Shown in pieces: positions 53,599-62,782 of a DNA stretch of 64,000 bases. Below the pieces are notes generated by a model. It worked only from the letters and a program-made list of their open reading frames with translations. It ran no database searches and was not told the DNA's origin. This stretch comes from Nitrososphaerota archaeon (lineage in GTDB: Archaea; Thermoproteota; Nitrososphaeria; Nitrososphaerales; Nitrosopumilaceae): positions 160,001-224,000 of the forward strand of contig JAGWFT010000002.1 of NCBI GenBank assembly GCA_028867755.1. The letters are read 5' to 3'. How positions within the stretch are numbered: the stretch's first letter is position 1; each line of letters begins with the position of its first letter. A program made the position numbers and the translations under genes.

Positions 53599-54735
53599 TT
53601 ACTTGCCAGAATCCTTTTGGTTTACGTGCAATCTCTTTAGGTGATACAGCATTTGCTTGAAGACCTCGATGCTTCGAAGATATTCATCTGTTGATACACG
53701 CTCATCAACTGTATGTGATGCATGGGGGTCACCTGGGCCATATGTTACAACTGGAATGTTCAACGAGTTTCCAATGATGTTCATGTCGCCTGTCCCAGTC
53801 TTTCTTATGAGCTGAGGCCTTGACTTTTCAACATCTAGTATTCCAAGTGTTAGTGCCCTAACAAGCGGAGAATTATGCGGCGCCTCAAATGGCTCTGTCT
53901 CGTCTAGAACAGAATAAAACGCATTGACTCCTTGTTTTTTGGCAACCTCTTGGACTGTTGTTGCAATTTTTTCTCCAACCATTTTGCAGTTCATGTCTAC
54001 TGGAATTCTGATATCCATGATAGCATCGCACTCTACTGCAGTTACGTTGTGGCTTGTTCCTCCCTTTATCTCAGTGATCACAGCAGTAAGCATCATACTT
54101 TTTGCTTTGCCATTTTGGTCTCCTTCCAGGGCTTGCTTGATTGCAGAGGTAAAGACATAAGATTCCTCGATTGCATTTTTTGCAAGCCATGGAGCACTGG
54201 CATGTGCACTATCCCCTACATTGATTTTGAGGTTGATGGCAATTCTTCCCTTGTATGCAATGGTGATGTTTCTAATGCTGCTAGGCTCGCCAAAAATTGC
54301 ATAATCGATATCAAGTTTTTGTTTTACTAAGCTCTTAATTCCAGTTGCATTTCCTTCCTCATCTACTACGGCAGCAAAGACTACAGTTCCGTTATCGTTG
54401 TGCGCCGAAGCAGCTGCTAGAAGCATGGCCATTAGTGGTGCCTTTGCATCAGAAGCTCCCCTTCCGTATATGTGACCGTTATCATTTCTAACCTTTATCT
54501 TTCCTGGCACTGTATCCATGTGGCCGCAAAGAAGTATCTTCGGAGAGCCAGAGCCCTTTGTTGCAATAAGGTTTCCTACATCGTCAATGCGAATGTTCTC
54601 AAAGCCCAAGTCATCGCACTTGTCTGCTAGAAATTCGGCAAGCGGCTTTTCAGAAAGTGATGGTGTGTAAAGCCTTAGAGCCTGCTCTAGCATCTTTACT
54701 GAAAATCTTGGTGTGATGGTAATTGAAGAGTCCAA
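53599..54735 (-). CDS. lysK: [LysW]-lysine/[LysW]-ornithine hydrolase (M20)
   Basis: CGHMDTV, GRGASDAK, VDEEG, GEPS, GTGDMN, YGPGD...SHT; inside the lys cluster. Confidence 0.9.
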   Translation of the reverse strand: MDSSITITPRFSVKMLEQALRLYTPSLSEKPLAEFLADKCDDLGFENIRIDDVGNLIATKGSGSPKILLCGHMDTVPGKIKVRNDNGHIYGRGASDAKAPLMAMLLAAASAHNDNGTVVFAAVVDEEGNATGIKSLVKQKLDIDYAIFGEPSSIRNITIAYKGRIAINLKINVGDSAHASAPWLAKNAIEESYVFTSAIKQALEGDQNGKAKSMMLTAVITEIKGGTSHNVTAVECDAIMDIRIPVDMNCKMVGEKIATTVQEVAKKQGVNAFYSVLDETEPFEAPHNSPLVRALTLGILDVEKSRPQLIRKTGTGDMNIIGNSLNIPVVTYGPGDPHASHTVDERVSTDEYLRSIEVFKQMLYHLKRLHVNQKDSGK

Positions 54736-54738
54736 TTC

Positions 54739-55587
54739 TTATTTTCTCGATTGTGTTGCGTAGTCTATCATCAAGGCTGGTATATCTACGCCAGTAACCC
54801 TTACGGTATTTTTGTATTCCGTTGTGTTGTTAACCTCGTGAACTACCAGGCCATTTTCCTTGCTTTCCATTAGATCAACGCCTACTATCTGCCCTTGTAC
54901 AGCATTTTTTGCCTTTATGCAAATGTCTTCGAGTTCCTTTGTCACTTTCATGGGCTCTGCCTTGCCGCCTAGCGCCATGTTTGTCTTCCACTGTCCCTCA
55001 CCAGAATAGCGGTATATTGCAGCAACAACCTTGTCGCCTATCATTATTGCTCTAATGTCGCGGGGAGGTCTGTTGACAAATTCTTCGAGATAATACACTT
55101 GATAAATTGGATACATTGATTCCCGTGTCTCCATTATTCCTTGTGCAGAATCACGGTCATTTAGCAGTGCTATCATCCTTCCCCAGCTTCCAACAGTTGG
55201 TTTTAGAACCATCGGGTATCCCCTTTTTTCTAAAAGTTCTAGTGCAGCTTCTTCAGAGAATGCGACTGCACTAAATGGAGTTGGGATACCGTTCTTTACT
55301 AATAACATGTGGGTGAAGAGCTTGTTTCCAGCAAATATGCTGGTGTTAAGTCCATTGATGACATTGACTCCTTTTCCTTCAAGTGCTGCTGTAGAATGAA
55401 GACTGCGATAATAGCTTACACATCTTTGTATGGCAGTACCATACTCTTCTTTGCTTTTGTCCAAATTGATGAATAAACTCTTGCAATCAACCATCTTTGC
55501 TTCGACGCCCTTTTTCCTTGCGGCATCGAACAGAGCTTTTTCTTCCCACCTGATGGTATCGTAGAGTATCGATAGAACCGAGCTCAC
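54739..55587 (-). CDS. lysX: Alpha-aminoadipate--LysW ligase (lysine-type ATP-grasp)
   Basis: QRCVSY, KP..GSWGR, RDIR, W.TN.ALG, EVNNTTEYKNT; the N-T signature is recalled as LysX-type. Confidence 0.88.
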   Translation of the reverse strand: MSSVLSILYDTIRWEEKALFDAARKKGVEAKMVDCKSLFINLDKSKEEYGTAIQRCVSYYRSLHSTAALEGKGVNVINGLNTSIFAGNKLFTHMLLVKNGIPTPFSAVAFSEEAALELLEKRGYPMVLKPTVGSWGRMIALLNDRDSAQGIMETRESMYPIYQVYYLEEFVNRPPRDIRAIMIGDKVVAAIYRYSGEGQWKTNMALGGKAEPMKVTKELEDICIKAKNAVQGQIVGVDLMESKENGLVVHEVNNTTEYKNTVRVTGVDIPALMIDYATQSRK

Positions 55588-55748
55588 TGGCCCCAGTCCT
55601 CACCAACAGTTTGTGCTGGTTTTAACTCAAAGCCTGAGGATCCTTTGGATAACTCAAAACTTGCACCACAGTCTGGGCAAGTCACAATCTCTCCCTCCAT
55701 CGAATCTTTTGGGGGGTTGATATTGGCATCACATTCTGGACATTTCAT
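55584..55748 (-). CDS. lysW: LysW amino-group carrier protein with C-terminus EDWGQ (54 aa, not in ORF track)
   Basis: MKCPECDANINPPKDSMEGEIVTCPDCGASFELSKGSSGFELKPAQTVGEDWGQ*; last sense codon CAG. Confidence 0.92.
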   Translation of the reverse strand: MKCPECDANINPPKDSMEGEIVTCPDCGASFELSKGSSGFELKPAQTVGEDWGQ

Positions 55749-55749
55749 A

Positions 55750-56940
55750 TTATTTACCTGTCTTTACCTTAACTTTGGTGTCATTAATTATCTTTCTTTC
55801 AAGCCTGTCATCAAGCGGTATCTCAAGCAGGTCTCCCATCCTTAGGTCCTTGAGGCCTGCTGCCACCTTCTTTGCGTGTTCTTCATCTTGGTCAAGACCT
55901 AAAAGCGACATGAGATATGCTGCACCATTCTTGCCTGCAAGCTCGCCAAATACTATTTTTCTCCTGTTGCCCACTACCTTTGGTTCAATTGGTTCGTATG
56001 CTGCGGGATTTCGAAGAATTGCAGCCAAGTGAGTTCCTGCCTTGTGTTTGTATGCGGTTGCACCAACAACTGGCTTGGAGTCATATGGTACAATTCCTGT
56101 ATATTGCTCAATTAGTCTTGAGAGGTCCATGAGCATATCAAGCCTGAAATTATTTGGAGATTTGTAAAGATAGGTAAGTGTTACAGCTGTTTCTGCAAGT
56201 GCTGGTATCCCGGTCCTTTCGCCAATACCGTCGATGGTTGTATGTATCTGGTCGGCTCCTGCATCACATCCTGCAAGTGCGTTTGCTAGTGCTAGTCCCA
56301 TGTCATTGTGGCAGTGCACGTCAAGTGGAGTCTTGATTTTCTCGCGAACTGTCTTTACAAGATTGTACATGCCGTTAGGTCTCATTATTCCAACAGTATC
56401 AGGTATGCTGATTCTGTCAACACCTGCATCTGAGATCTCTTTGCAAACCTTGAGGAGAAACTCTGGATCAGCCCTGCTTCCGTCTTCCACTGTAAATCGC
56501 ATCTTAAACCCATGTGACTTGGCATACTCGACTGTCTCGACTGCCCTTTGCAATGCCTCTTCTCTTGTAATTCTAAGCTTGTCTTTCATGTGTATGTCTG
56601 AGATTCCAAGATATGTTGCCATCCACGTGGCATCACACTCTAGTGCAATATCTACATCTTCTTTGAGGGCACGCACGTGAGCTACAATGTCTGCCTTGAG
56701 TCCTTGCTTGATTATTGTCTTGGTGGCCTCTTTGTGATCTGGCGATATTACAGGTGAAATCTCAATTTGGTCAACTCCAAAATAATCAAGCATCCATGCA
56801 ATCTGGATTCTTTGTTTGTTAGAAAACGTAACCCCTGGGTGCTGCTCTCCTTCTCGCAGTGTACTATCCAAGATATGGATCTTCTTTGGTTTTTGTCCAA
56901 TCTCGTTATACTTGTATGCGTAATAATTCGGATCGTCCAT
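55750..56940 (-). CDS. Homocitrate synthase / isopropylmalate-synthase-family protein (probably homocitrate synthase)
   Basis: DSTLREGEQ, PDTVG, H.HND.G.A.AN, GIGERTG, HKAGTH; directly upstream of lysW-lysX-lysK. Confidence 0.8.
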   Translation of the reverse strand: MDDPNYYAYKYNEIGQKPKKIHILDSTLREGEQHPGVTFSNKQRIQIAWMLDYFGVDQIEISPVISPDHKEATKTIIKQGLKADIVAHVRALKEDVDIALECDATWMATYLGISDIHMKDKLRITREEALQRAVETVEYAKSHGFKMRFTVEDGSRADPEFLLKVCKEISDAGVDRISIPDTVGIMRPNGMYNLVKTVREKIKTPLDVHCHNDMGLALANALAGCDAGADQIHTTIDGIGERTGIPALAETAVTLTYLYKSPNNFRLDMLMDLSRLIEQYTGIVPYDSKPVVGATAYKHKAGTHLAAILRNPAAYEPIEPKVVGNRRKIVFGELAGKNGAAYLMSLLGLDQDEEHAKKVAAGLKDLRMGDLLEIPLDDRLERKIINDTKVKVKTGK

Positions 56941-57056
56941 TACTGAATCAGTATCAAAATTTTGGAAATATAAACATATTCGTACAGGTTTCGGCTATTT
57001 TTGTAGCTTTTCCGACGGTTTTCGTGAAATGCAGAAAATTAAAGCCGAACTTCGTT

Positions 57057-57476
57057 TTATGATACAGTTCTTAGTATGATGACAGTGTTTGTGTCAAAAA
57101 CACCGGGTACCTTGCGTAGTGCATCTATGCATGCGTTAATCTCTGTGATGTTGGGAGCTCTGATAACTGTTGCAATGTCATACTGACCTGTTATCTCGTA
57201 AACTGTATGGACTCCTTGGAGTTTTGATAGTCTTGCTGAAACCTTTGATGTGTCTGTTGAGGAATCAACAGATATCAAAATTATTGCACTAGTTGAATTA
57301 CTGTCTCCAGTCTCGATCGTAAATTTTTTTATTGTACCACCGTCGGTTAGGTTTTTTACTCTGCGCCTTACTGCAGACTCTGACAGTCCAAGCTTTTGGC
57401 CTATTTCTACAAAAGATTGTCTTGAATCTTTTTTTAGCATCTCAATTATTGTTTCGTCTGTCTTGTCTCTAGACAT
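57057..57476 (-). CDS. lysM: Lrp/AsnC regulator LysM
   Basis: D..II..L..DSR.SF.EIG..LGLSESAVRRRV, YEITG.YD; inside the lys/arg cluster. Confidence 0.85.
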   Translation of the reverse strand: MSRDKTDETIIEMLKKDSRQSFVEIGQKLGLSESAVRRRVKNLTDGGTIKKFTIETGDSNSTSAIILISVDSSTDTSKVSARLSKLQGVHTVYEITGQYDIATVIRAPNITEINACIDALRKVPGVFDTNTVIILRTVS

Positions 57477-58662
57477 TTCTTCTTTGTACCTCTTTTGTTA
57501 GTATTATATCTAGAGTTTCTAAAGTTTTGTTTATGTCAGACTCTGAAATGACAAGAGGAGGCAACAGTCTCAGTATGTTCTTTCCGGAATAGAGAAGAAG
57601 CAGGTTGTTTGCAATTCCGTCAAACAAGATATCTTTTACCTCAAACTTCATCTCAACTCCAATCATCAATCCCTTGCCACGAATCTCGCGAACTATCTTG
57701 TGTTTTTCTTTTAGTCTTTCCAGTCCCTCTCGGAAGAGCTTACCCATCTTGGCTGCGTTTTCGACCAGTCCATCTTCTGTCAGGGCCTGAATCGTAGCAA
57801 TTCCACCAGCACATGAAAGCGGGTTACCGCCAAAAGTTGATGACTGTTCTCCCTTTCCAATACATGCAAGAATCTCTGGCTTGACCAGAGTTGCACCCAT
57901 GGGCACTCCTCCTGCAATTCCCTTTGCAAGACACATCATATCTGGTGCTGTATCCCAGTGCTGGCTTGCCCACATTTTGCCAGTCCTTCCAAGACCTGCC
58001 TGGATCTCATCGAAGATCAAAACTGTTCCGTTCTCATTGCACAACTTTCTTACCTCTTGCAGAAAACCTTCTGGTGCCACATGGATTCCACTCTCTCCTT
58101 GAATTGGCTCTAGTATGACAAGTGCAGTATCAGGAGTCATTGCAGACTTGAGAGCCTCGATATCACCAAATGGAGTAAAGGAGACATTGCTTAGAAGAGG
58201 CTCAAAGGCCTTGCGATATTTTGGATTAAATGTAAGTGAGAGTGAACCAAATGACTTGCCGTGGTAAGAGCCGTTCATTGCAATCATTCCCTTCTTTCCT
58301 GTGAACTTACGTGCAAATTTTATTGCAGCTTCTACTGCCTCTGTGCCGCTGTTGTTTAGATATACCTGACCAAGACCAGGTAGTGAAATTTTAGCAAGTT
58401 TTTCAAGAAACTCTTCTCGGGTCTTGTTGTAAAGCGAACTGTGGACAGTGATTATTTTGTCAAGCTGTGACTTTAGTGCCTTTACTACACGCGGATTGCA
58501 GTGACCAACAAGGGCAACACCGTATCCTCCCATGCAATCGATGTACTCTTTTCCGTTAAGGTCCCAGACATGGGCCCCAAGTCCTCGCTCTATTGTTACA
58601 GGAAATCTTTGGTAAATATTTCCCATGAATTGGTCTTCTGTCATTTTGATATCACCGTACAA
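57469..58662 (-). CDS. lysJ: [LysW]-aminoadipate/glutamate semialdehyde aminotransferase
   Basis: NSGTEAVE, SYHG, EPIQGESG, DEIQAG.GRTG, LAKGIAGG, STFGGNP; probable start at ATG 58644. Confidence 0.9.
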   Translation of the reverse strand: MYGDIKMTEDQFMGNIYQRFPVTIERGLGAHVWDLNGKEYIDCMGGYGVALVGHCNPRVVKALKSQLDKIITVHSSLYNKTREEFLEKLAKISLPGLGQVYLNNSGTEAVEAAIKFARKFTGKKGMIAMNGSYHGKSFGSLSLTFNPKYRKAFEPLLSNVSFTPFGDIEALKSAMTPDTALVILEPIQGESGIHVAPEGFLQEVRKLCNENGTVLIFDEIQAGLGRTGKMWASQHWDTAPDMMCLAKGIAGGVPMGATLVKPEILACIGKGEQSSTFGGNPLSCAGGIATIQALTEDGLVENAAKMGKLFREGLERLKEKHKIVREIRGKGLMIGVEMKFEVKDILFDGIANNLLLLYSGKNILRLLPPLVISESDINKTLETLDIILTKEVQRRNV

Positions 58663-59441
58663 TTGTCGTTAGCTATGGCTCGTGATATTGGGTTTTCCCT
58701 CTGGCCGCTTGCAACTAGTGCCTGTTTTACACCCATCTCGATTGCTTCTGTAGCAGCTAGTATTTTCTTTTCCATGCCAAATCCTATCTTTGGAAGAATT
58801 GCCTTGGCCTCGTCAAGTGATAGTTTTGTCACTAGCTTGTCATCCATCAAAAGGCCGTCCACGTTAGTGAGAAACAAAATCTTGTCTGACTGCATCTTGC
58901 CTGCTACATAGGCAGCAGCTCTGTCACCATCTACATTTAGAAAATCAAATTCTTCACTTGTGGCAATAGGTGAGATTACCGGGACGTATCCTTGGTCTAA
59001 GATTACTTTTATGAGGTCAGTGTTTATCTCGCGTATCTTCCCTGTATATCCGCCGTCAATTGCCATCTTTCTTCCTTTTTCATTGATTACAATTAGTTTC
59101 TTTTTTCTCTCTGCCTGGATTATCTTGCCATCAATACCTGAAAGACCAACTGCATTGATTCCATTTTTCTGTAGCATTCCTACAATCATCTTGTTTATCT
59201 TGCCTGACATTACCATGGTGAAAATTTCTGCAGTCTCCTTGTCAGTGTACCTACTCTTGATGCCGCCAGGTGAAACTATGAATTTTTGTTCTTTTCCAAG
59301 AGCTTCTGAGATCCTCGTTACTTCTTTTCCTCCACCATGTACCAAAATTACTTTTTCTTGCTCTGAGACTTTTTTCAAGTCTGATATGGTAGAAGGATGA
59401 AGACCGTCTACAACACTTCCTCCTATCTTGATTGTGATCAT
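58641..59441 (-). CDS. lysZ: [LysW]-aminoadipate/glutamate kinase
   Basis: IKIGGS, VHGGG, SRYTD, LNVDGDRAA, GM..K. Confidence 0.9.
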   Translation of the reverse strand: MITIKIGGSVVDGLHPSTISDLKKVSEQEKVILVHGGGKEVTRISEALGKEQKFIVSPGGIKSRYTDKETAEIFTMVMSGKINKMIVGMLQKNGINAVGLSGIDGKIIQAERKKKLIVINEKGRKMAIDGGYTGKIREINTDLIKVILDQGYVPVISPIATSEEFDFLNVDGDRAAAYVAGKMQSDKILFLTNVDGLLMDDKLVTKLSLDEAKAILPKIGFGMEKKILAATEAIEMGVKQALVASGQRENPISRAIANDNCTVISK

Positions 59442-59445
59442 CTTT

Positions 59446-60498
59446 TCACACAGGAGTTAGCGGGGAATATGCAAGGCCGTCCATCTCGTTGAACCCTGAC
59501 ATCACGTTCATGTTTTGTATGGCTGAGCCTGCTGCACCCTTCATTAGGTTGTCTGATGCTGATAATACCACTAACCTGTTGTTGTCTTCGTCAATATCAA
59601 ACCCAACATCACAAAAGTTCGAGCCTACCACGAACTTTGGATCTGGGAACTTGTAGAATCCTTTCTTGTCACGAATTAGTCTGATGAACTTTTCATTTTG
59701 ATATTGTTCACGATATATCTTCCACAAATCCATTTCTGTTACTGGCTGCGTAAGAAATGTGTGGTTTGTGCACAAGATTCCTCTTACAATGTCTACTGCA
59801 TGTGGACTCATTGATATTTTGATCTTCTTTCCAGCTGCCTGGCTTAGCTCTTGCTCTATCTCTCCTGTATGTCTGTGCTTTGCTGGCTTGTATGGTCTGA
59901 CAACACCTGACCTCATTGCATGATGGGTCCCTGCCTCAGAGCCTGCTCCAGCTCCTGAAGAGCCTATCTTGGAATCTACAATAATGTGTTCAGTGTCTAT
60001 GATTCCTTTCTTTACCAGTGGGTATAGCGCAAGAATTGATGTTACTGCCATGCATCCAGGGCATGATACAAGCTGTGCCTTTTTGATCTCTTCTCTGTGA
60101 AGTTCTGGAACTCCAAATACTGATTTTGGTAGATAGTCTGGATGTGGATGCTGCCAGCCGTACCACTTGTCATAGTCTGGTGCATTGTGCAATCTATAGT
60201 CTGCACTCAAATCAATTACTTTCATTCCCCTGTCGTACAACTCTTTTACAATATCTACCGCTGTTCCATGTGGTACAGATGTAAAGACCAAGTCGCACTT
60301 GTCTGATAACTTGTCATAATTTAGTTCCGAAAAAGTTAGATCAGTAAATCCTTTGAGGCTTGGCTGAATTCTGGAGATATATTCTCCAACATGTTGTCTT
60401 GAAGTTACTGCTGCAATCTCAACTTTGGGATGGCTGACAAGCAGTCTGAGTATTTCTCCTCCAACATATCCTGATGCCCCGATTACTCCTATTCTCAT
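59446..60498 (-). CDS. lysY: [LysW]-aminoadipate/glutamyl-phosphate reductase
   Basis: GASGYVGGE, IDLSADYRL, PGC, HRH..EI, DNLMKGAAG.A.QN.N. Confidence 0.92.
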   Translation of the reverse strand: MRIGVIGASGYVGGEILRLLVSHPKVEIAAVTSRQHVGEYISRIQPSLKGFTDLTFSELNYDKLSDKCDLVFTSVPHGTAVDIVKELYDRGMKVIDLSADYRLHNAPDYDKWYGWQHPHPDYLPKSVFGVPELHREEIKKAQLVSCPGCMAVTSILALYPLVKKGIIDTEHIIVDSKIGSSGAGAGSEAGTHHAMRSGVVRPYKPAKHRHTGEIEQELSQAAGKKIKISMSPHAVDIVRGILCTNHTFLTQPVTEMDLWKIYREQYQNEKFIRLIRDKKGFYKFPDPKFVVGSNFCDVGFDIDEDNNRLVVLSASDNLMKGAAGSAIQNMNVMSGFNEMDGLAYSPLTPV

Positions 60499-60557
60499 AA
60501 GTGATCTCCTAGCATAACATAGTATAATTTAAACTCTAAAATTTTCTAAATTTCTTT

Positions 60558-61415
60558 TTATCTAACTGCTGAGCTAACTGCATACTCAATCATCTCTTTT
60601 GGAATATTGCGTTTGGCAACCTTTGCCAATCCCTTAAACTCTACAGTATTGTTGACCTCGTGAACTACAAATCCTCTTTTTTCATCTTCCATGATGTCAA
60701 TTCCAAGAATTCCTCCTCCAACTGCTTTTGATGCTTTCATGCAAATATCTTCTAGGTCCTTTGTTATCTCGCATGGCACAGGCTCTCCACCGAGCGCGAT
60801 ATTTGTCTTAAATCCTCCAGACGAGGTCCTGTACATCGCAGCTATGACTTGGTCTCCTACTGCGATTGCCCGGATGTCTCTTGGAGGCCTCTTTATTGCC
60901 TCTTGGAGATAAAATATCCTGTCAAGCGGGCCATCGGTTAGCTCCCTTACTTCGATAATTGCGTCTGCTGTCTCTCTGTCCTTTAGTAGTATCACTCCCC
61001 TTCCCCAGCTTCCTATGATTGGCTTGATAACAAGTGGGTATCCTTGTTTTTCAAGCGTCTCAACTGCCGACTCGGACGAGAACGAAAAATAGGTCTTTGG
61101 TGTGGGAACGTTGTGTTTCTTTAGGAGAAGCGATGTTAACATTTTGTTTCCGCAGTTGTTTGCAACCTCAAACTTGTTGAAGACTGGGATATCGAGAAAT
61201 TCTAGACATGCTGTAATGTGCAGACCACGAAAATAGCTGACACATCTTTCAAGTACCACATCACCAAAATCAAAATCATTTTTCTTGCTTTCAGTACTGA
61301 TGTTAGTTATCTTTGCATCGATCATCTTTGTATCATGTCCAAGCTCTATTGCTTTTTCCTCGAGCATTTTCTCTTCTAGTCTTACTCTATCAAACACGAT
61401 ACGGAGTTTGGGCAT
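60558..61415 (-). CDS. argX: Glutamate--LysW ligase (arginine-type ATP-grasp)
   Basis: Same fold as LysX but with EVNNTVEFKGL (G-hydrophobic signature recalled as ArgX-type); downstream of argG and the second lysW. Confidence 0.78.
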   Translation of the reverse strand: MPKLRIVFDRVRLEEKMLEEKAIELGHDTKMIDAKITNISTESKKNDFDFGDVVLERCVSYFRGLHITACLEFLDIPVFNKFEVANNCGNKMLTSLLLKKHNVPTPKTYFSFSSESAVETLEKQGYPLVIKPIIGSWGRGVILLKDRETADAIIEVRELTDGPLDRIFYLQEAIKRPPRDIRAIAVGDQVIAAMYRTSSGGFKTNIALGGEPVPCEITKDLEDICMKASKAVGGGILGIDIMEDEKRGFVVHEVNNTVEFKGLAKVAKRNIPKEMIEYAVSSAVR

Positions 61416-61583
61416 TTACTCTCCCCAATCTTCGCCGACTTTTTCAGCATGTTTTAGTTCGCATACTGCGCCGTTCTTTGAAGCAATCTCAAAATCTGCC
61501 CCGCAATCAGGACAAGATATTATCTCTCCAACACTTGCGTCACCTGGAATTTTTAAATTTGCATCACATTCTGGACAATTCAT
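61416..61583 (-). CDS. lysW: Second LysW/ArgW carrier with canonical C-terminus EDWGE (55 aa, not in ORF track)
   Basis: MNCPECDANLKIPGDASVGEIISCPDCGADFEIASKNGAVCELKHAEKVGEDWGE*. Confidence 0.93.
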   Translation of the reverse strand: MNCPECDANLKIPGDASVGEIISCPDCGADFEIASKNGAVCELKHAEKVGEDWGE

Positions 61584-61594
61584 TCTTTAATTTT

Positions 61595-62782
61595 TCACCC
61601 CTTTTTTAGTAATTTATTAGCTTCTGTTGATTGCAGCCCCCACAATTCTACAAATCCTTTTGCAAGGGTCTGGTCGAAAGTGGAACCTGAACCATATGTT
61701 GCTAAGTCATGACTATACAATGAATAATCTGATTTTCTTCCAACCACTCTAAGACTTCCTTTGAACATTTTGAGCTTTACAGTTCCGCTAACTCTTTTCT
61801 GTGACATATTGATAAACATATCTAAATCTGTTTTCAGAGGATCTTGCCAGAGCCCGGAATATGCGAGCCATGCCCATTCCGAGTCAACCATTGCTTTGAA
61901 TTTTAATTCGTGTTTTGTAAGAACCATTTTTTCTAGATCGGTATGTGCCTCAATAAGACAGAGAGCTGCTGGCGTCTCGTATACCTCTCGAGATTTTATT
62001 CCAACCACTCTGTCCTCTATGTGATCTACTATTCCAACACCTGCCGCTCCGGCCTTTTTGTTGACGTATTGGATTAACTCCATTGGTTTTAGATTCCTGC
62101 CGTCTACTGCCACCGGTATTCCCTGCCTGAACTTTATCTCCAAGTACTGTGGCCTGTCTGGCAAGTTTTTTGTCTTGACCCAGATGAAAGCGTCTTCTGG
62201 TGGCTCTGCAAATGCATCTTCAAGATCACCTCCCTCTATTGCTCTTCCCCAAAGGTTTTGGTCTATGCTAAACCTCTTTGCTGCAGTATCAATCTGTATT
62301 CCATGCTTTTTTGCAAATTTTAATTCAATATCGCGAGTAAGGTTGAGGTCCCTGATGGGGGCAATGATTGGCAAAGTAGAGCCTGATCGCATGGTGACAT
62401 CAAATCGCACCTGATCATTTCCTTTTCCAGTACAGCCATGAGCCAATGCCTCCGCGTTCTCTTTTTTTGCAATCTCTACTACCTTTTGAGCAATTAATGG
62501 TCTTGCAAGAGCCGTTGCAAGACAATATTTTTTTTGGTATAGTGCATTTGCCTTGATTGAAGGTATTATGAAATCCTCTACAAACTCGCTTCTTGCATCA
62601 ACGTTGTAATGCCTTACCACTCCAAGTTTTTTTGCCTTGGCTGTAATTTTTTTCAGATCGTCGCCCTGACCAACATCAACTGTAATAGTGACTACATCTA
62701 GTCCGTGTTTTTCTTGAAGATATTTTACGACAACAGATGTGTCAAGTCCGCCAGAGAAAGCTAAAACTGCCTTTCCTTTCAT
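61595..62782 (-). CDS. argG: Argininosuccinate synthase
   Basis: LAFSGGLDTS, TALARPLI, HGCTGKGNDQVRF, SIDQNLWG, KSREVYE. Confidence 0.96.
   Translation of the reverse strand: MKGKAVLAFSGGLDTSVVVKYLQEKHGLDVVTITVDVGQGDDLKKITAKAKKLGVVRHYNVDARSEFVEDFIIPSIKANALYQKKYCLATALARPLIAQKVVEIAKKENAEALAHGCTGKGNDQVRFDVTMRSGSTLPIIAPIRDLNLTRDIELKFAKKHGIQIDTAAKRFSIDQNLWGRAIEGGDLEDAFAEPPEDAFIWVKTKNLPDRPQYLEIKFRQGIPVAVDGRNLKPMELIQYVNKKAGAAGVGIVDHIEDRVVGIKSREVYETPAALCLIEAHTDLEKMVLTKHELKFKAMVDSEWAWLAYSGLWQDPLKTDLDMFINMSQKRVSGTVKLKMFKGSLRVVGRKSDYSLYSHDLATYGSGSTFDQTLAKGFVELWGLQSTEANKLLKKG

What the first reader, a model, noticed from the sequence alone, without database searches (positions are those of the whole stretch)
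54739..61583. Two LysW carriers; the lysine-linked one ends in Gln (EDWGQ), which cannot use the canonical gamma-carboxyl chemistry
Seen in sequence: lysW at 55584-55748 ends EDWGQ (CAG) and sits between homocitrate synthase and a LysX with the N-T signature. The lysW at 61416-61583 ends EDWGE and sits between argG and a ligase with a G-L (ArgX-like) signature. Only one lysY/Z/J/K set serves both. The GTGA overlap with the lysX start needs only a codon ending in G, so GAG (Glu) would fit equally well and Gln is not forced. Established: LysX/ArgX form an isopeptide with the gamma-carboxyl of the C-terminal Glu of LysW, while the paralog RimK ligates to an alpha-carboxyl. Inference: the lysine branch may use alpha-carboxyl ligation, need prior deamidation, or use a transamidation. 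The E/Q terminus may also partition Lys from Arg flux through shared enzymes. This would be an undescribed variant of amino-group-carrier biosynthesis.
Basis: partly seen in the sequence, partly recalled or inferred. Interest (0 to 1): 0.78.

Follow-up and report, generated by a model that had tools for sequence, protein, structure and literature searches.

The report
Glutamine-ended LysW lysine carrier
This ammonia-oxidising archaeon encodes the small carrier protein of its only lysine pathway with a terminal glutamine where the known chemistry needs a glutamate; the trait is ancestral and conserved in ammonia-oxidising archaea, so they must uncap the carrier or attach the substrate in a way nobody has described.

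Summary
The window holds two LysW carriers. One ends EDWGQ and lies in HCS-lysW-lysX-lysK. The other ends EDWGE and lies in argG-lysW-argX-lysY. One lysY/Z/J/K set serves both, and no lysA or dapA was found, so this looks like the only lysine route.

The Gln is not an error and is not forced by the GTGA overlap. All 65 lysX-linked carriers read, across three families of ammonia oxidisers, end in Gln, some before TAA or TAG stops. Non-ammonia-oxidising relatives have one carrier ending in Glu.

The idea that E versus Q partitions lysine from arginine flux fits this family and one sister family only. In the soil family the argX-linked carrier also ends in Gln in 24 of 26 genomes. Four genera there show only the Gln carrier, which must then serve both ligases. 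E/Q flips within a genus leave the ligase motifs unchanged.

Most likely (about 0.42) the Gln is a cap that is hydrolysed once to Glu, as with Pup and Dop, followed by the usual gamma chemistry. Alpha-carboxyl ligation (about 0.25) is not excluded. No uncapping enzyme was identified.

No paper in the library mentions this. The scan has noted it before on other genomes.

The parts
55584..55748 (-). lysW(Q): 54-aa zinc-ribbon amino-group carrier ending EDWGQ. It also has Gln instead of Glu nine residues before the end (KPAQTVGEDWGQ).
   Evidence: (NF041070, 86 bits, cut-off 75).
55587..55589 (-). Terminal Gln codon CAG. Its G is the first base of the lysX GTG start (CAG TGA / GTG A).
   Evidence: CAGTGA is kept in all family f1 loci. 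A natural GAGTGA variant exists. f2 and f3 have CAG or CAA before TAA, TAG or TGA.
54739..55587 (-). lysX: RimK-family ATP-grasp ligase, assigned to the aminoadipate (lysine) branch. Signature residues are I-I-M-NT.
   Evidence: TIGR02144, 336 bits; tree clade 99/99.
53599..54735 (-). lysK: M20 [LysW]-lysine/ornithine hydrolase, the only copy in the genome.
   Evidence: TIGR01902 256 bits, above its cut-off of 163; NF003367 260 bits, below its cut-off of 363.
55750..56940 (-). Homocitrate synthase-like gene. Its stop lies one base before the lysW(Q) start.
   Evidence: TIGR02146 387 bits, below its cut-off of 413.55, so the name rests on context; synteny.
57057..57476 (-). Lrp/AsnC-type regulator inside the cluster.
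   Evidence: the syntenic gene carries Pfam AsnC domains.
57469..58662 (-). lysJ: class-III aminotransferase, shared by both branches.
58641..59441 (-). lysZ: amino-acid kinase, the only copy.
59446..60498 (-). lysY: semialdehyde dehydrogenase-type reductase, the only close copy.
60558..61415 (-). argX-like ATP-grasp ligase. Signature residues are I-M-I-GL.
   Evidence: TIGR02144, 305 bits; tree clade 100/96.
61416..61583 (-). lysW(E)/argW: 55-aa carrier ending EDWGE.
61595..62782 (-). argG: argininosuccinate synthase, which marks the arginine half of the cluster.

Best explanation
lysW(Q) is the working and essential carrier of this organism's only lysine pathway. It is genetically encoded as a capped form. 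Its terminal gamma-carboxamide is most likely hydrolysed once to give Glu, in the way Pup-Gln is deamidated by Dop before ligation. LysX then makes the usual gamma-acyl-phosphate and links aminoadipate. The shared LysZ, LysY and LysJ convert the cargo, and LysK releases lysine and returns the carrier as the Glu form. Shown here: the Gln is encoded, ancestral in ammonia oxidisers and under purifying selection; the carrier belongs to the lysX-lysK operon; Q-ended carriers suffice for both branches in other ammonia oxidisers; E/Q swaps need no change in the ligase motifs. Inferred: that deamidation happens at all. The enzyme is unknown. The candidates, without specific evidence, are LysK in the same operon and a conserved Nit1-like amidase elsewhere in the genome.
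For: 1) Conservation. All 65 lysX-linked carriers read in families f1, f2 and f3 end in Q, while the neighbouring Gly codon uses all four synonymous forms and the stop is TGA, TAA or TAG. Of 120 protein clusters, 114 end EDWGQ.
2) Essentiality. The genome is 99.95% complete, has two carriers and one lysK/Z/Y/J set, and gave no hit to lysA or dapA.
3) Q carriers serve both branches. G203 (closed genome) has only the Q carrier and two ligases. In f3, 24 of 26 argX-linked carriers end in Q, with CAA and CAG both used.
4) E and Q are interchangeable without refitting the ligase. A Q-to-E lineage keeps the same synteny and an unchanged LysX. Within-genus E-to-Q flips on the argX side (g12, g31) keep the RDIR, TN..GG and EVN motifs.
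5) Only E or Q occurs at the terminus among 106 diverse LysW-like representatives (88 E, 18 Q). That fits a side chain that is, or becomes, the attachment point.
6) In a distant Q-type operon a glutamine-amidotransferase-II/EgtC-like hydrolase, a fold that cleaves gamma-glutamyl amides, sits among lysW-lysX-lysY-lysZ-lysJ with no M20 gene in the locus read. This points to gamma chemistry behind a Q terminus there.
7) With gamma linkage, the shared LysZ/Y/J/K would see chemically identical adducts from both carriers (inference).
8) Precedent from established knowledge: Pup ends in Gln in mycobacteria and in Glu in other actinobacteria. Dop both deamidates Pup and cleaves the isopeptide.
Against: No deamidase was identified. 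The genome gave no hit to Dop/PafA, a free-standing EgtC-like amidase, isochorismatase-type hydrolases or Asparaginase_2. As I recall, M20 deacylases such as LysK hold the amino-acid side of the scissile amide, and ammonia lacks that handle, so LysK is not an obvious glutaminase. If the cap is removed before ligation, a Q-to-E reversion should be harmless. The near-total retention of Q on the lysX side and of E on the argX side in this family then needs an extra, unknown benefit. Nothing here measures the protein itself.
Confidence: 0.42

Rival explanations
1. Alpha-carboxyl ligation. LysX binds the terminal Gln in the RimK manner, phosphorylates its alpha-carboxylate and adds aminoadipate as an ordinary C-terminal peptide extension. 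The Gln stays throughout. The shared downstream enzymes accept the peptide-linked cargo, and LysK releases lysine as a carboxypeptidase.
For: LysX belongs to the RimK family (TIGR00768, 294 bits), whose other members ligate to alpha-carboxylates (PMC10375531). The Arg that holds the C-terminal residue next to ATP in RimK and in Thermococcus LysX (the RDIR motif) is kept in every ligase read. No extra enzyme is needed, which fits the failure to find a deamidase and the repeated independent E-to-Q changes. A persistent Q would explain why Q and E are each held by selection in their own paralogue in this family. From memory, Thermus LysK also deacetylates N-acetyl-lysine and N-acetyl-ornithine, so the acyl side may be loosely read.
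Against: In this genome the single LysZ/Y/J/K set would have to process two different linkages. ArgX enzymes that recently met a Q partner show no motif change, so the same site would have to switch regiochemistry. The terminus is only ever E or Q. The EgtC-like gamma-glutamyl-amide hydrolase in a distant Q-type operon argues for gamma linkage there.
Confidence: 0.25
2. Direct use of the amide at the gamma position. The ligase, or another enzyme, exchanges the amide nitrogen for the amino group of aminoadipate. This could be ATP-dependent O-phosphorylation of the carboxamide or a transglutaminase-like transamidation. Ammonia is released and the normal gamma-linked adduct results.
For: It would need no separate deamidase and gives the same adduct for the shared enzymes. 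It is compatible with E/Q swaps without changes in the ligase motifs.
Against: I know of no ATP-grasp enzyme that activates a carboxamide. No transglutaminase-type gene is linked to the operon in any locus read. After one cycle LysK would return the Glu form, so the enzyme would still need the normal chemistry.
Confidence: 0.07
3. In this genome the Q protein is not loaded at all and acts as a regulator or decoy, while LysX uses the EDWGE carrier.
For: As encoded it cannot enter the described chemistry. Some EDWGQ zinc-ribbon proteins lie in virus-like contigs without pathway genes, so non-carrier uses of the fold may exist.
Against: It is tightly packed between homocitrate synthase and lysX: its start lies one base after the synthase stop, and its stop overlaps the lysX start. 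Its orthologues are conserved in all 65 genomes read. They are the only carrier in four f3 genera, and in most of f3 every carrier ends in Q.
Confidence: 0.03

Closest known systems
LysW/ArgW amino-group carrier proteins of Thermus thermophilus, Sulfolobus/Sulfurisphaera, Thermococcus kodakarensis and Natrinema
   Same: The same zinc-ribbon fold family, the same acidic EDWG tail, the same operon partners (lysX/argX, lysZ, lysY, lysJ, lysK), and the same use of shared downstream enzymes for lysine and arginine.
   Different: The described carriers all end in Glu, whose gamma-carboxylate is the attachment site. This one is encoded with Gln there and also has Gln at position -9. There are two dedicated carrier-ligase pairs, whereas Sulfolobus has one carrier for two ligases.
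Pup with Dop and PafA (actinobacterial pupylation)
   Same: A small protein whose C-terminal Gln must become Glu before its gamma-carboxylate is phosphorylated and joined to an amine. Natural Gln and Glu versions exist in related organisms. In that system the release enzyme also acts as the deamidase.
   Different: The proteins are unrelated. No Dop/PafA homologue was found here. Deamidation of LysW is inferred, not shown.
RimK, MptN and CofF alpha-L-glutamate ligases
   Same: They are homologous to LysX. They act on a C-terminal or terminal acidic residue held by the same conserved Arg.
   Different: They ligate to the alpha-carboxylate and add glutamate. Whether LysX does this with a Gln terminus is unknown.
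Carrier-peptide (pearlin-type) amino-acid biosynthesis
   Same: An amino acid is built while attached to the C-terminus of a small scaffold and is then cut off (PMC9303977, abstract seen).
   Different: There, from memory, attachment is to the alpha-carboxylate by tRNA-dependent enzymes unrelated to LysX. It is relevant only as a precedent for the alpha-linked rival.

Membership tests
LysW/ArgW amino-group carrier protein | Small zinc-ribbon with two CxxC pairs that matches the family profile | tested here: met
   NF041070 scores 86 bits against a cut-off of 75. CPEC...CPDC is present. PDB LysW chains 3vpb_E, 3wwl_A and 5k2m_E match.
LysW/ArgW amino-group carrier protein | C-terminal Glu whose gamma-carboxylate receives the substrate | tested here: not met
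   The terminal codon is CAG (Gln), and this is conserved in 65 of 65 orthologous loci. It is a sequence homologue, but as encoded it lacks the attachment group. I therefore file it as a variant, not as a standard member.
LysW/ArgW amino-group carrier protein | Acidic flexible tail (EDWG) and genetic linkage to lysX and the other pathway genes | tested here: met
   The tail reads VGEDWG. The operon HCS-lysW-lysX-lysK is conserved in three families.
LysW/ArgW amino-group carrier protein | Is actually loaded with aminoadipate or glutamate | not testable with these tools
   This needs mass spectrometry or an enzyme assay.
LysX (aminoadipate-specific) versus ArgX (glutamate-specific) ligase | Five-residue signature: LysX F-I-T-NS, ArgX I-Y-V-GF (PMC12998189) | tested here: inconclusive
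   Window lysX reads I-I-M-NT and ligase 2 reads I-M-I-GL. The last pair fits (NT like NS, GL like GF). The other positions fit neither type cleanly. Gene context (homocitrate synthase versus argG) and separate tree clades support the assignment.
Pup/Dop-type capped modifier | A dedicated deamidase of the Dop/PafA family | tested here: not met
   PF03136 gave no hit in the genome, and the control genome rang. The comparison is with how the system works, not a claim of membership.
RimK-type alpha-carboxyl ligation | Ligation to the alpha-carboxylate of the terminal residue | not testable with these tools
   Only the homology (TIGR00768, 294 bits) and the conserved RDIR arginine could be checked.

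The most novel reading that the evidence does not exclude
Ammonia-oxidising archaea, and other lineages with EDWGQ carriers, run an amino-group carrier pathway in which the substrate is joined to the alpha-carboxylate of a terminal Gln, or to its amide by direct exchange. That would be a second chemistry for carrier-protein-mediated lysine and arginine synthesis, in some of the most abundant microbes on Earth.
Probability: 0.3. Interest if true: 0.85.

Novelty: new variant of a known kind. Interest (0 to 1): 0.72.

Why it matters
Ammonia-oxidising archaea are among the most abundant microbes in oceans and soils, and they must make their own lysine and arginine. The described carrier chemistry, worked out in Thermus, Sulfolobus and Thermococcus, cannot start from the protein these organisms encode. 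In the soil family, all carriers read in most genera are of this kind. Either there is an unrecognised maturation step, a Pup-like uncapping that could gate entry of new carrier into the cycle, or there is a different attachment chemistry. Both are directly testable on cultured strains with a mass measurement that resolves a 1-Da difference. The result would also correct metabolic models and automatic annotation, which now call these proteins ordinary LysW.

Tried and rejected
1) A ligase change that tracks the Q terminus. All lysX-clade ligases have Leu where Thermus LysX has Arg205 (WKTNMALGG), and non-ammonia-oxidiser ligases keep Arg. But the window's argX, whose partner ends in E, also has Leu; g12 ArgX has Ala; and f3 ArgX with Q partners keeps Arg. 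I rejected this as a marker.

2) Codon bias. The genome prefers CAA (6473) over CAG (3770). CAG in f1 is explained by the GTG overlap, and f3 uses both codons, so there is no signal beyond selection for Gln.

3) Candidate deamidases in the genome. There was no free-standing EgtC-like amidase: only the two large class-II amidotransferases hit. Isochorismatase, Asparaginase_2 and Dop/PafA gave no hit. One Nit1-like CN-hydrolase is present with its Glu-Lys-Cys triad invariant. It occurs in 86 of 86 ammonia oxidisers searched, but more distant homologues also occur in relatives that have only E carriers, so the distribution is not informative.

4) Complex prediction of that hydrolase with LysW(Q) gave no support (score 0.00). 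This counts neither for nor against binding.

5) Expression. No RNA holder was listed.

6) Contigs of four metagenome runs were laid on 55400-55900. None of the 40 listed differences falls on 55587-55589, but 77 rows were not shown, so this is weak.

7) The papers with the LysX-LysW, LysZ-LysW and LysY-LysW structures are not held, so contacts of the terminal residue could not be read.

8) Literature searches for EDWGQ, for LysW with deamidation, and for 'amino group carrier protein' with 'C-terminal glutamine' found nothing relevant.
Full report
WHAT IS THERE. On the minus strand the window carries one interleaved arginine/lysine cluster. Its order is argG (61595-62782), a 55-aa LysW ending EDWGE (61416-61583), an ATP-grasp ligase (60558-61415), lysY, lysZ, lysJ, an Lrp/AsnC regulator, a homocitrate-synthase-like gene (55750-56940), a 54-aa LysW ending EDWGQ (55584-55748), lysX (54739-55587) and lysK (53599-54735). 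Both small proteins pass the NCBIfam cut-off for archaeal LysW/ArgW, and both ligases pass LysX_arch. The carriers are 60% identical and the ligases 48%. The Gln codon is CAG. Its G begins the GTG start of lysX, and the TGA stop follows.

THE GENOME. The assembly is 1.64 Mb and 99.95% complete. It has exactly two carriers, two ligases, one each of lysK, lysZ and lysY, and one close lysJ. The profiles for lysA and dapA gave no hit, while control genomes did. The aminoadipate route therefore appears to be the only way to lysine, which makes the lysX-linked carrier essential. The nearest named protein clusters are from Nitrosotalea. The DNA is held mainly by mine-drainage and soil metagenomes.

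NOT AN ERROR AND NOT FORCED. I read the lysX-linked carrier in 65 genomes: 55 of the window's family (f1), 3 of f2 and 7 of f3. All end in EDWGQ. The Gly codon before it uses all four synonymous forms. The stop is TGA in f1 but TAA or TAG in f2 and part of f3, where there is no overlap with a start codon. One f3 genome uses CAA. Among 120 protein clusters related to the Q carrier, 114 end EDWGQ. One cluster (P0094, 24 contigs read, several samples) ends EDWGE with GAG TGA in the same GTGA overlap, in the same synteny and with an unchanged LysX. The overlap therefore does not force Gln, and Gln is held by selection. Three of the 65 genomes (G077, G092, G093) are unpublished, and G256 enters only one tally. 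No claim depends on them.

WHERE IT CAME FROM. Relatives in the same class that are not in the ammonia-oxidiser order have a single carrier (one genome has two). All six read end EDWGE. A maximum-likelihood tree of the ligases gives three groups: an ammonia-oxidiser LysX clade (support 99/99, every partner Q), an ammonia-oxidiser ArgX clade (100/96), and a separate clade of the single ligases of the other families (99/97). Both ammonia-oxidiser clades repeat the same family order. The pair LysW(Q)-LysX is thus as old as the ammonia-oxidiser radiation. The Q carriers also carry Gln in place of Glu nine residues from the end (KPAQ.VGEDWGQ against AE.VGEDWGE).

THE PARTITION IDEA. In f1 and f2 the argX-linked carrier ends in Glu in 27 of 28 genomes read and in 113 of 120 protein clusters. 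The remaining clusters are frame-shifted reads and none ends in Q. In the window's family, Q on the lysine side and E on the arginine side are therefore both maintained. It is not general, though. In f3 the argX-linked carrier ends in Gln in 24 of 26 genomes, using both CAA and CAG. In four f3 genera every sampled genome gave one carrier hit, and the four read (three of the genera) hold the lysX-linked Q type. One of these, the closed genome G203, has two ligases. One f1 species (G095) has also switched its argX-linked carrier to Q, while its congeners keep E. Both ligases can therefore work from Q-ended carriers. In the two within-genus switches (g12, g31) the ArgX catalytic motifs are unchanged.

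BREADTH. A search of 1.84 billion cluster representatives gave 303 hits. Of the best 150, 106 have a LysW-like end: 88 in Glu, 18 in Gln and none in any other residue. I looked up eight of the 18; three lay on contigs too short to show context, and the other five gave three kinds of context.
- Ordinary operons, one of them with an M20 gene nearby.
- One operon where a 212-aa protein with weak matches to glutamine amidotransferase II and EgtC sits between lysY and lysZ, with no M20 gene in the locus read.
- Two long contigs full of small unknown genes and without any pathway gene, which look viral.
The 17% figure therefore overstates true pathway carriers. Even so, the variant is widespread and has arisen many times.

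MECHANISM. Established knowledge says LysX/ArgX phosphorylate the gamma-carboxylate of the terminal Glu, and a carboxamide cannot do this. Three routes remain.

(a) Uncapping. The amide is hydrolysed to Glu and the usual chemistry follows. After the first cycle LysK returns the Glu form, so the cap matters only for newly made protein. In favour:
- only E or Q is ever seen at the terminus;
- E/Q swaps need no refit of the ligase;
- the shared enzymes would see one kind of adduct;
- a gamma-glutamyl-amide hydrolase fold sits in a distant Q-type operon;
- the Pup/Dop system is an exact precedent, in which the release enzyme is also the deamidase.
Against: I found no deamidase, and the selective value of a cap that a one-base change would remove is unexplained.

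(b) Alpha ligation in the RimK manner. In favour:
- the family's other members do this;
- the arginine that holds the C-terminal residue next to ATP (RDIR; Arg173 in Thermococcus LysX, Arg189 in RimK, PMC10375531) is kept in all ligases;
- no extra enzyme is needed;
- a permanent Gln would explain why Q and E are each conserved in their own paralogue.
Against: one enzyme set would have to handle two linkages in this genome.

(c) Direct amide exchange. I know of no precedent in ATP-grasp enzymes.

I put (a) at about 0.42, (b) at 0.25, (c) at 0.07 and a non-carrier role at 0.03. The remainder is for something not thought of.

COMPARISON WITH WHAT IS KNOWN. By sequence, fold family and operon this is a LysW. 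By the feature that defines how LysW works, the terminal Glu, it is not, so I call it a new variant of a known kind. The library holds no paper with the string EDWGQ, none linking LysW to deamidation in this sense, and none on a carrier protein with a C-terminal glutamine. A genome-scale model of Nitrosopumilus treats its LysW as ordinary (PMC6038301).

The scan itself has noted Gln-ended LysW before on other genomes: ammonia oxidisers, Asgard archaea and bacteria. I re-tested on my own data the claims that it is general in ammonia oxidisers, that it can be the sole carrier, and that the argX-linked carrier can be Q, and they hold. I partly re-tested the claim about an amidohydrolase in some operons, with one example.

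LIMITS. Everything rests on DNA. No protein mass, no expression data (no RNA holder was listed) and no structure of the terminal residue in these enzymes could be consulted. The assignment of lysX to aminoadipate and of ligase 2 to glutamate rests on gene context, on the tree and on the last pair of the published five-residue signature (NT against GL). The other signature positions fit neither type.

Noticed in passing
L126:8001-8168 (P0171) and L128:8001-8174 (P0235): LysW-like zinc-ribbon proteins ending EDWGQ lie in 66-79 kb metagenome contigs full of small ORFs without Pfam hits. The few hits are TROVE/Ro60, Evr1_Alr, glycosyltransferases and a metallophosphatase. No lysX/Z/Y/J/K is nearby. 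The contigs look viral. A non-loadable carrier mimic is one thought.
   Followed up: no
L100:9113-9751: In a distant operon whose carrier ends EDWGQ (P0192, from a 2.96 Mb contig), a 212-aa protein lies between lysY and lysZ. It matches EgtC (TIGR03442, E 1.9e-13, below cut-off) and GATase_4/6 weakly. No M20 lysK is in the locus read.
   Followed up: partly
Own genome, contig 24, 393454-394260 (L158:1495-2304): The only CN-hydrolase of the genome is Nit1-like (deaminated-glutathione amidase model, 218 bits, below cut-off), with an invariant Glu-Lys-Cys triad. An orthologue at 54% identity or more is present in all 86 ammonia-oxidiser genomes searched. Its substrate class (omega-amides of a 2-oxoglutarate-like moiety) resembles an N-acyl-glutamine terminus.
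   Followed up: partly
window 57057-57476: An Lrp/AsnC-family regulator sits inside the cluster between lysJ and homocitrate synthase. It overlaps lysJ by 8 bases and is conserved in synteny in Nitrosopumilus-like contigs. From memory, it recalls the LysM regulator of the Sulfolobus lys operon.
   Followed up: no
window 54739-55587 and 60558-61415: Both ligases of this genome have Leu at the position of the Arg in the TN..RGG motif (Thermus LysX Arg205) and a Lys five residues before it. Relatives outside the ammonia oxidisers have Arg at both positions. The change does not track the E/Q terminus and is unexplained.
   Followed up: partly
window 58641-58662: lysZ and lysJ overlap by 22 bases. 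Most genes of the cluster are tightly packed (overlaps or gaps of one to a few bases), which suggests translational coupling across the arginine and lysine halves.
   Followed up: no
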